A stretch of DNA of 64,000 bases from contig OZ024752.1 in the NCBI GenBank assembly GCA_964016885.1, positions 6,634,001-6,698,000 of the forward strand, given 5' to 3'. The DNA comes from Eledone cirrhosa. Lineage: Eukaryota. The notes under the pieces were generated by a model. It did not search any database. It was not told the DNA's origin and was given only the letters and a program-made list of their open reading frames with translations. The position numbers and the translations under genes were made by a program. Positions 7,007 through 7,161 of this stretch are shown one piece after another. Numbering within the stretch: the stretch's first letter is position 1; the number at the start of each line of letters is the position of its first letter.

Positions 7007-7161
7007 GGCTCTGATACCATCAACACTGTAAACACAGAGCTGGCATATCTAAGAACTGACTAACTGCCTGATGAGGTCATAGCCATTCAATGGCTATCAT
7101 CGAAATATATATAGCAGTAAATAAAGGACTATGGGTTCATGCAATTGACTTATGTTTCATC
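7007..7161 (+). mobile_element. Short HHR-bearing element between (TA)n tracts (PLE-terminal-repeat/retrozyme-like), family A copy 1
   Basis: Near-identical reverse-complement copy at 29797-29953 with the same boundaries; (TA)n on both sides. Confidence 0.75.
7063..7118 (+). ncRNA. Type I hammerhead ribozyme (family A)
   Basis: Stem I ACTGC(7063-67)/GCAGT(7114-18); core CTGATGA 7068-74; stem II GGT-c-ATAGCCAT/ATGGCTAT-c-ATC; GAAA 7102-05; minimal stem III TATATA; predicted cleavage after AUA (7113). Confidence 0.88.

What the first reader, a model, noticed from the sequence alone, without database searches (positions are those of the whole stretch)
7007..7161. Intact family A hammerhead in a 155-bp element present twice with the same ends
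The copy at 29797-29953 (minus) has the same boundaries and an identical ribozyme, while the substitutions lie outside it. Equal ends argue for a defined non-autonomous unit rather than random 5' truncation. The TATATA stem III is self-complementary, the feature that lets minimal PLE hammerheads cleave as dimers.
Basis: partly seen in the sequence, partly recalled or inferred. Interest (0 to 1): 0.75.

Follow-up and report, generated by a model that had tools for sequence, protein, structure and literature searches.

The report
Penelope ribozyme ends record transcription start
This short repeat is the ribozyme-bearing end of a known kind of jumping gene (a Hydra-type Penelope retrotransposon, over 3,000 copies in this genome), not a separate mini-element; its many similar-length copies likely arise when the enzyme copies an uncut RNA back to its capped start, which hints at what the predicted ribozyme is for.

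Summary
Both copies and the type I hammerhead motif are real. They are the terminal repeat (pLTR) of a 4.2-kb Hydra-clade Penelope-like element (RT plus GIY-YIG) with 3,321 exact 3'-end matches genome-wide. The 3' end is fixed and joined to (TA)n. The 5' end is not 155: 0 of 93 copies sampled by their 3' end start there, and 43 are longer than 167 nt. Short copies form no subfamily, and rare changes hit the ribozyme as often as its flanks (2.09% vs 2.17%). An extra G precedes it in 77 of 100 listed purine cases (background 23-41%), the known footprint of a copied cap. So short copies are likely run-off cDNAs from capped, uncleaved RNA. None of 15 copies that continue into the ORF starts there, so these likely used a longer-than-unit, possibly circular, template. 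Known kind of element; the genomic footprint is useful and testable. No RNA data.

The parts
7007..7161 (+). Copy A: 5'-shortened pLTR of a Hydra-clade Penelope-like element, element positions -155..-1 counted from the main 3' end (site 1)
   Evidence: 93.5% to the 3' end of full-length copy L096
7063..7118 (+). Type I hammerhead motif: stem I 7063-7067/7114-7118, core CUGAUGA 7068-7074, stem II 7075-7101, GAAA 7102-7105, stem III; predicted cut after AUA, between 7113 and 7114 (element position -48)
   Evidence: motif scan; constrained fold -13.6 vs competing minimum -14.7 kcal/mol; activity untested
7105..7112 (+). Palindromic stem III/loop III (ATATATAT), predicted dimer interface
   Evidence: sequence; duplex -5.2 kcal/mol
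7114..7161 (+). 48 nt between the predicted cut and the fixed 3' end (inferred internal reverse-transcription start, site 1)
   Evidence: 87 of 93 sampled ends join TA repeats within 2 nt of this point, 5 continue into the tail, 1 joins (CT)n
7162..7203 (.). (TA)n target microsatellite at the 3' junction of copy A
6996..7008 (-). 13-nt inverted end of a different TA-associated repeat joined head-to-head to copy A with a 2-nt (GG) overlap; the same end occurs at 6905 and 7240 (+)
29797..29953 (-). Copy B: same pLTR fragment (-155 to the terminal AC), (TA)n on both sides
29842..29897 (-). Hammerhead motif of copy B, identical to that of copy A

Best explanation
The two 155-bp pieces are pLTR-only insertions of an RT/GIY-YIG Hydra-clade Penelope-like retrotransposon in (TA)n, and they were likely made by copying a capped, uncleaved transcript from an internal start back to the RNA's 5' end. 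Shown: parent element, fixed 3' end, TA target, a sharp 5' limit at -166 with an excess extra G, no short-copy subfamily, intact hammerhead in most copies. Inferred: Pol II starts at the A of TC-ATATG at -166 in the pLTR; the element protein nicks (TA)n and starts reverse transcription inside the RNA about 50 nt past the hammerhead cut (site 1; less often 87-92 nt further, site 2); on a transcript that begins in the pLTR the enzyme runs off the capped end after ~166 nt, and the end is joined directly (ATAT microhomology, or with the cap-derived G) or after losing a few bases, which gives -148..-165 copies such as both window copies. These short copies are by-products that then decay neutrally. 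Longer and full-length copies need RNA that carries 3' UTR upstream of the start site; a hammerhead-cut, ligated circle is the likelier source, read-through of tandem copies the alternative.
For: Parent: full pLTR-ORF-pLTR copy L096, unit 4,178 bp, ORF with RMRW, DKT, YRDD, CxCx5C, HYIG, CxxC/CxH; 429 homologues at E<=0.001, top hits from molluscs, some carrying PF01541 or PF00078. 3' end: 3,321 exact matches, control 0; 26 of 30 loci found by an upstream query reach the same end. 5' limit: 945 start vs 976 pass at -166; 21 vs 758 at the second CATATG near -319 (Fisher p=4e-146). The limit holds without TA microhomology: 30 of 68 arms in 34 head-to-head pairs end at -141..-169, 10 of them at -164..-167, 11 beyond. 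Cap footprint: G in 77 of the first 100 of 172 W-R-ATATGTCCCAAGGC hits (counted by hand), background 23-41%; untemplated G is the accepted cap sign for L1 and SVA (PMC4859970 passages). Not an intrinsic roadblock: 0 of 14 ORF-containing copies that reach the zone stop in it, vs 34 of 77 in the 3'-end sample (p=0.0008). No subfamily: shared-derived rate short-short 0.15%, long-long 0.10%, short-long 0.14%; 96 of 100 permutations as structured. Precedent: internal initiation, AT-rich target and uncleaved RNA as main substrate in PAc (PMC11167929); promoter inside the pLTR in Penelope (PMC2377424).
Against: No RNA evidence for the start site, the cap, cleavage or a circle. The window copies themselves start at -155, without a G, so their origin by trimming is inferred from the family. 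CATATG is a palindrome and matches the target, which raises joining at -166 whatever the cause (the control site shows this alone gives ~3%). The two arms of a pair usually share a template (shared-derived 0.73% vs 0.12%), so arms are not independent counts. The ORF-containing sample is small (15) and was selected through the tail pattern on three contigs. In the hammerhead the core can mispair with stem II (competing fold 1.1 kcal/mol more stable). No copy with an unbroken ORF among 15 examined.
Confidence: 0.75

Rival explanations
1. A defined non-autonomous unit: short genomic copies are themselves transcribed and re-copied, like a SINE. The only plausible masters are the -166..+92 copies, which keep the start, the hammerhead and the first downstream motif; the 155-166 nt copies lack any sequence past site 1.
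For: 9 of 36 simple tail-ended copies run from -165/-166 to site 2. Arms of one insertion share rare derived bases, so mutated genomic copies may serve as templates. Penelope's promoter is internal (PMC2377424), so short copies could keep it.
Against: No allele separates short from long copies (-135 C: 12/34 vs 13/42; -131 C: 5/34 vs 5/43); equal divergence, 2.66% vs 2.69%; no tandem arrays among the sampled short copies; in PAc the protein needs RNA downstream of the start site.
Confidence: 0.12
2. The -166 limit is a structural template boundary in the freshly initiated protein-RNA complex (telomerase-like), not the RNA's 5' end.
For: A predicted long-range helix pairs -170..-157 with about -36..-24, so the limit lies in a helix arm. 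PLE RTs are telomerase relatives (PMC8557442). It would also spare ORF-containing copies.
Against: Does not explain the excess G. The 3' arm of that helix is copied first, which should open it.
Confidence: 0.1
3. Plain random 5' truncation with TA microhomology; the equal ends of the two window copies are chance.
For: 43 of 93 copies end at scattered longer positions and 16 at <=91 nt. The exact base -155 is not preferred (0 of 93), so the base-exact match of the two window copies is itself chance within a preferred zone.
Against: 49% vs 2.7% stopping at two sites with the same 6-mer; no ends at all between -92 and -147; the limit persists at junctions without TA.
Confidence: 0.03

Closest known systems
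Hydra clade of C-terminal EN+ Penelope-like elements (Craig et al. 2021, PMC8557442; sections 11 and 15, passages, supplement part 2 and alignment passages read), e.g. Hydra-1_Obim
   Same: Single RT-GIY-YIG ORF; RW(K/R) and DKT motifs; CxCx5C linker; CxxC and CxH near the end; no CCHH; (TA)n target; hammerhead in the terminal repeat.
   Different: Unit 4.2 kb (Hydra families are mostly <3 kb) because of a ~1.3-kb 3' UTR and two low-complexity inserts in the ORF; RWR for RWK; hammerhead sequence unlike that listed for Hydra-1_Obim, so a different family.
Minimal type I hammerheads in PLE pLTRs (Cervera and de la Pena 2014, PMC4209133; parts 1-2 of 4 read)
   Same: 5-bp stem I, long stem II, short palindromic stem III, mostly solo motifs ascribed to truncated PLEs; proposed dimer cleavage and circular template.
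   Different: Here the solo copies have a mapped sharp 5' limit with a cap-like G; that paper gives no end mapping in the parts read.
PAc Poseidon element of Anolis (Frangieh et al. 2024, PMC11167929; parts 1-2 of 4 read)
   Same: Internal RT start downstream of the hammerhead, two start sites bounding a tail, AT-rich target, uncleaved RNA used as template.
   Different: Different clade; tail here 87-92 nt; the hammerhead lies ~190 nt before the ORF, not overlapping the start codon.
Animal non-LTR retrozymes (Li, Clavereau, Pollet 2026, 10.64898/2026.07.22.740005, part 1 of 5 read; PMC7229834, listing only)
   Same: Type I hammerhead, non-coding, pLTR-related.
   Different: Defined by tandem units with at least two ribozymes; these copies are solo and continuous with an ORF-bearing parent.

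Membership tests
EN+ Penelope-like element | ORF with RT and C-terminal GIY-YIG endonuclease | tested here: met
   Motifs in L096/L094; homologues carry PF01541/PF00078; alignment with Hydra-type layout. Direct Pfam, NCBIfam and PDB sequence scans of this protein found nothing.
EN+ Penelope-like element | Direct pLTRs from partial tandem structure, 5' truncation, inverted arms with an optional tail | tested here: met
   14 of 15 fetched ORF-containing loci show two direct pLTR ends; 41 of 90 tail-bearing loci have an inverted partner.
Hydra clade | RWK and DKT motifs | tested here: met
   RMRWRAY (R for K) and HADKTNN in L096 vs definition; read by eye.
Hydra clade | CxCx5C linker, no CCHH, CxxC and CxH flanking the last conserved E and N | tested here: met
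   CNCRDPSLC, CNLCLSE, CRH; one cysteine only inside the GIY-YIG core.
Hydra clade | (TA)n insertion and hammerhead | tested here: met
   87 of 93 ends in TA repeats; motif.
Hydra clade | Generally <3 kb (descriptive) | tested here: not met
   Unit 4,178 bp.
Hydra clade | Placement in an RT tree with reference clades | not tested
   Reference proteins were seen only as supplement text; no tree was built.
Type I hammerhead ribozyme | Conserved core, three stems, NUH cut site | tested here: met
   constrained fold. Not detected by Rfam models.
Type I hammerhead ribozyme | Self-cleavage, as monomer or dimer | not testable with these tools
   Only a weak genomic hint: ends at -41..-48.
Non-LTR retrozyme | Tandem units, at least two ribozymes in a row | tested here: not met
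   Both window copies are solo; no head-to-tail array of the short unit among 93 sampled ends.
Non-autonomous SINE-like derivative | Own lineage with diagnostic alleles and its own fixed ends | tested here: not met
   0 of 93 at -155.

The most novel reading that the evidence does not exclude
The genome records two template states of one Penelope RNA. Capped, uncut transcripts give dead-end ~166-nt solo pLTRs (about half of all copies that reach that point), whereas every productive pLTR-ORF-pLTR copy comes from a hammerhead-cut, religated circle that the RT goes round more than once. The ribozyme would then be the switch that turns an abortive template into a replicative one, and pLTRs would be made by reverse transcription itself.
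Probability: 0.35. Interest if true: 0.72.

Novelty: new member of a known kind. Interest (0 to 1): 0.42.

Why it matters
The role of hammerheads in endonuclease-bearing Penelope elements is called unclear in PMC8557442 (section 15), and PMC2377424 notes no obvious mechanism for regenerating pLTRs. This family gives base-level predictions from DNA alone: a capped start at -166, RT starts at sites 1 and 2, a cut at -48, and full-length copies that never begin at the start site. It also warns that equal-ended solo pLTRs can look like a non-autonomous family when they are likely run-off by-products. The element class itself is known.

Tried and rejected
1. Five of 93 ends carry a foreign ~250-nt head joined at the predicted cut, first read as proof of cleavage. 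Rejected: the head belongs to another repeat that shares the downstream flank and also occurs without the tail, so this is one passenger insertion amplified to >=147 copies, and an 8-nt homology (GCAGTAAA) leaves the junction anywhere from -48 to -41. 2. Ends near the cut in head-to-head pairs: 5 arms at -41..-48 and 0 at -49..-60; three pairs (L156, L197, L199) have both arms there. Post hoc and few; a hint only. 3. Expression: no RNA holder listed; the three runs laid are contigs of unknown kind from one sample and show nothing on starts. 4. Rfam found no family for the element or the foreign head. 5. Pfam, NCBIfam and PDB sequence scans gave no significant hit. 6. The sigma-70 scan does not apply to an animal promoter. 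7. Folding of the 150-nt unit is not better than shuffles (z -0.82; the ribozyme alone z about -2); the two motifs downstream of sites 1 and 2 fold only weakly (z -0.70, -1.33). 8. The first genome search returned only full-length matches because the best 40 of 218 were scored; it was not used for end statistics. 9. Ends scored at -754 and -905 are limits of the reference (internal microsatellite, reference length), not true ends.

Full report
Positions with a sign count from the main 3' end of the element (site 1; -1 is window 7161).

Observation. The window holds two copies, 7007-7161 (+) and 29953-29799 (-), 95.5% identical, each next to (TA)n. Each holds the same 56-nt type I hammerhead motif, with a predicted cut after AUA between 7113 and 7114 (-48). 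A fold constrained to the hammerhead shape costs 1.1 kcal/mol over a fold in which the core pairs with stem II; the palindromic ATATATAT of stem III gives an 8-bp intermolecular duplex of -5.2 kcal/mol. Rfam does not see the motif. The 7 differences between the copies all lie outside the ribozyme, chance 0.040.

The parent. A pattern for the last 26 nt has 3,321 exact matches in the 3.0-Gb genome and 0 for the reversed control. Of the 30 best matches, 12 continue upstream into shared sequence, and a query from 210-490 nt upstream gave a staircase of 5' ends over 2 kb, with 26 of 30 loci reaching the same 3' end. L096 is a complete pLTR-ORF-pLTR copy with a 4,178-bp unit. Its ORF, broken by one frameshift near the start, shows RMRW, DKT, YRDD, a CxCx5C linker, HYIG, CxxC and CxH and no CCHH, matching the definition of the Hydra clade (PMC8557442 section 11; alignment text). 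There are 429 homologues, the best named ones from molluscs. The hammerhead listed for Hydra-1_Obim differs, so this is another family. None of 15 ORF-containing loci has an unbroken ORF. The host is probably a cephalopod; this is my inference from genome size and homologues and was not determined.

End distribution. I fetched 93 of the first 100 listed pattern matches, all on contig C1 and chosen without regard to their 5' side. At the 3' end 87 join TA repeats within 2 nt, 5 continue into a tail and 1 joins (CT)n. At the 5' end 16 are <=91 nt, 0 are 92-147, 10 are 148-164, 24 are 165-167 and 43 are longer; none starts at exactly -155. Five of the 16 short ones are a single passenger insertion inside another repeat.

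Conservation. In 77 copies of >=148 nt, with the 26 selected bases left out, rare substitutions occur at 2.09% in the ribozyme and 2.17% in the flanks (p=0.83); the 13 core bases show 1.5% (p=0.19); 65 of 77 keep an intact core. Recurrent alleles fall 52 in the flanks and 4 in the ribozyme. Selection thus acted on source copies, not on these insertions. Short and long copies share alleles at equal frequency, are equally diverged and show no class structure in 100 permutations.

What the -166 limit is. Genome-wide, 945 copies begin at ATATGTCCCAAGGC after A/T bases and 976 continue upstream. At the other CATATG, near -319, the counts are 21 and 758, so target microhomology alone does not explain it. 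In 90 loci sampled by the tail pattern (201 matches genome-wide), 34 distinct head-to-head pairs have junctions between two element arms with no TA; 30 of 68 arms end at -141..-169 and 11 go beyond. The arms are not independent, since they share derived bases (0.73% vs 0.12% in random pairs). A purine precedes the ATATG in 172 copies, and it is G in 77 of the first 100 listed against 23-41% in background ATATG contexts; the 30 flanks inspected show a single G set between unrelated flank and the element in 24 cases. An untemplated G marks a copied cap in L1 and SVA insertions (PMC4859970, two passages). Penelope is transcribed from inside its pLTR (PMC2377424, passages and section 15). I infer that -166 is the capped transcription start.

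Why longer copies exist. Of 15 copies that continue from a pLTR into the ORF, one starts at -71 and 14 start upstream of -169; none stops in the zone where 34 of 77 other copies stop (p=0.0008). The site is therefore not an obstacle in the sequence; the templates differ. The two pLTRs of one full-length copy differ less (3.6% vs 5.1%) and share more derived bases (0.61% vs 0.12%) than random pairs (14 pairs). This fits one RNA copied more than once round, but also related tandem units. One locus (L281) holds more than two partial units and one (L287) ends with a tail, so linear multi-unit templates exist. A circle made by hammerhead cleavage and ligation was proposed in PMC4209133; in PAc, cleavage needed protein and was dispensable for insertion in vitro. 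A few insertions end at -41..-48 on both arms, one exactly at the cut; this is a weak, post hoc hint of cleaved templates.

Two 3' ends. Besides site 1 there is a second end 87-92 nt downstream. In head-to-head pairs one arm ends at each, the known one-sided tail (PMC3846280 passages; PMC11167929). The motifs ACTC...GTTGAGT and GCTC...GTTGAGC follow each end after 6-7 nt in most of 15 copies, as earlier notes of this scan reported for other families, but they fold weakly here. Copies ending at site 1, including both window copies, lack these motifs and are likely dead ends.

Comparison and novelty. This is a new family of a known clade, with a known ribozyme type, target and tail. It fails the tests for a retrozyme and for a separate non-autonomous lineage. 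Five literature searches showed no Penelope paper reporting a cap-derived G at pLTR junctions or the contrast between short and full-length copies; the four Penelope-related papers listed have 0 occurrences of 'untemplated'. The library lacks most subscription papers, I read the key papers only in part, and the supplements of the 2026 preprint are closed. An earlier unreviewed note of this scan already proposed run-off at the RNA start for a Penelope family in this genome. Verdict: real, largely ordinary as an element, moderately interesting as a testable record of mechanism; interest 0.42.

Noticed in passing
window 7437-7499 (+), within a repeat at about 7326-7545: A second, unrelated hammerhead motif (8-bp AT-rich stem I, CUGAUGA, GAAA, TATATA-UA) in another abundant TA-associated family that recurs in many fetched loci.
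   Followed up: partly
window 6786-6920 (+), 6502-6589, 6996-7008 (-), 7232-7252 (+): Ends of a third TA-associated repeat family; a 13-nt inverted end is fused head-to-head to copy A with a 2-nt overlap, possibly a two-family insertion at one break. The same end abuts the 5' junction of L269.
   Followed up: partly
L161-L190, e.g. L115:2500-2830: A mobile repeat starting ATCTAATATATAT carries the last ~48 nt of this pLTR plus (TA)n as a passenger in >=147 copies. Carrier class not determined.
   Followed up: partly
L200, L213, L251: Three symmetric inverted insertions join at -83 through the hammerhead stem II hairpin with a 19-nt overlap, suggesting fold-back priming there.
   Followed up: no
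L099:168-761 (G000:C1, about 5,901,200-5,901,800): Twin-priming-like inversion whose two parts meet at the TATATATA of stem III.
   Followed up: partly
L096:7250-7650 and 7870-8050: Two Pro/Arg/Thr-rich inserts in the ORF, absent or shorter in homologues.
   Followed up: no
L093 and L097 (minus strand), L100:4684-6170: ORF fragments of other Penelope-like families lie next to these copies.
   Followed up: no
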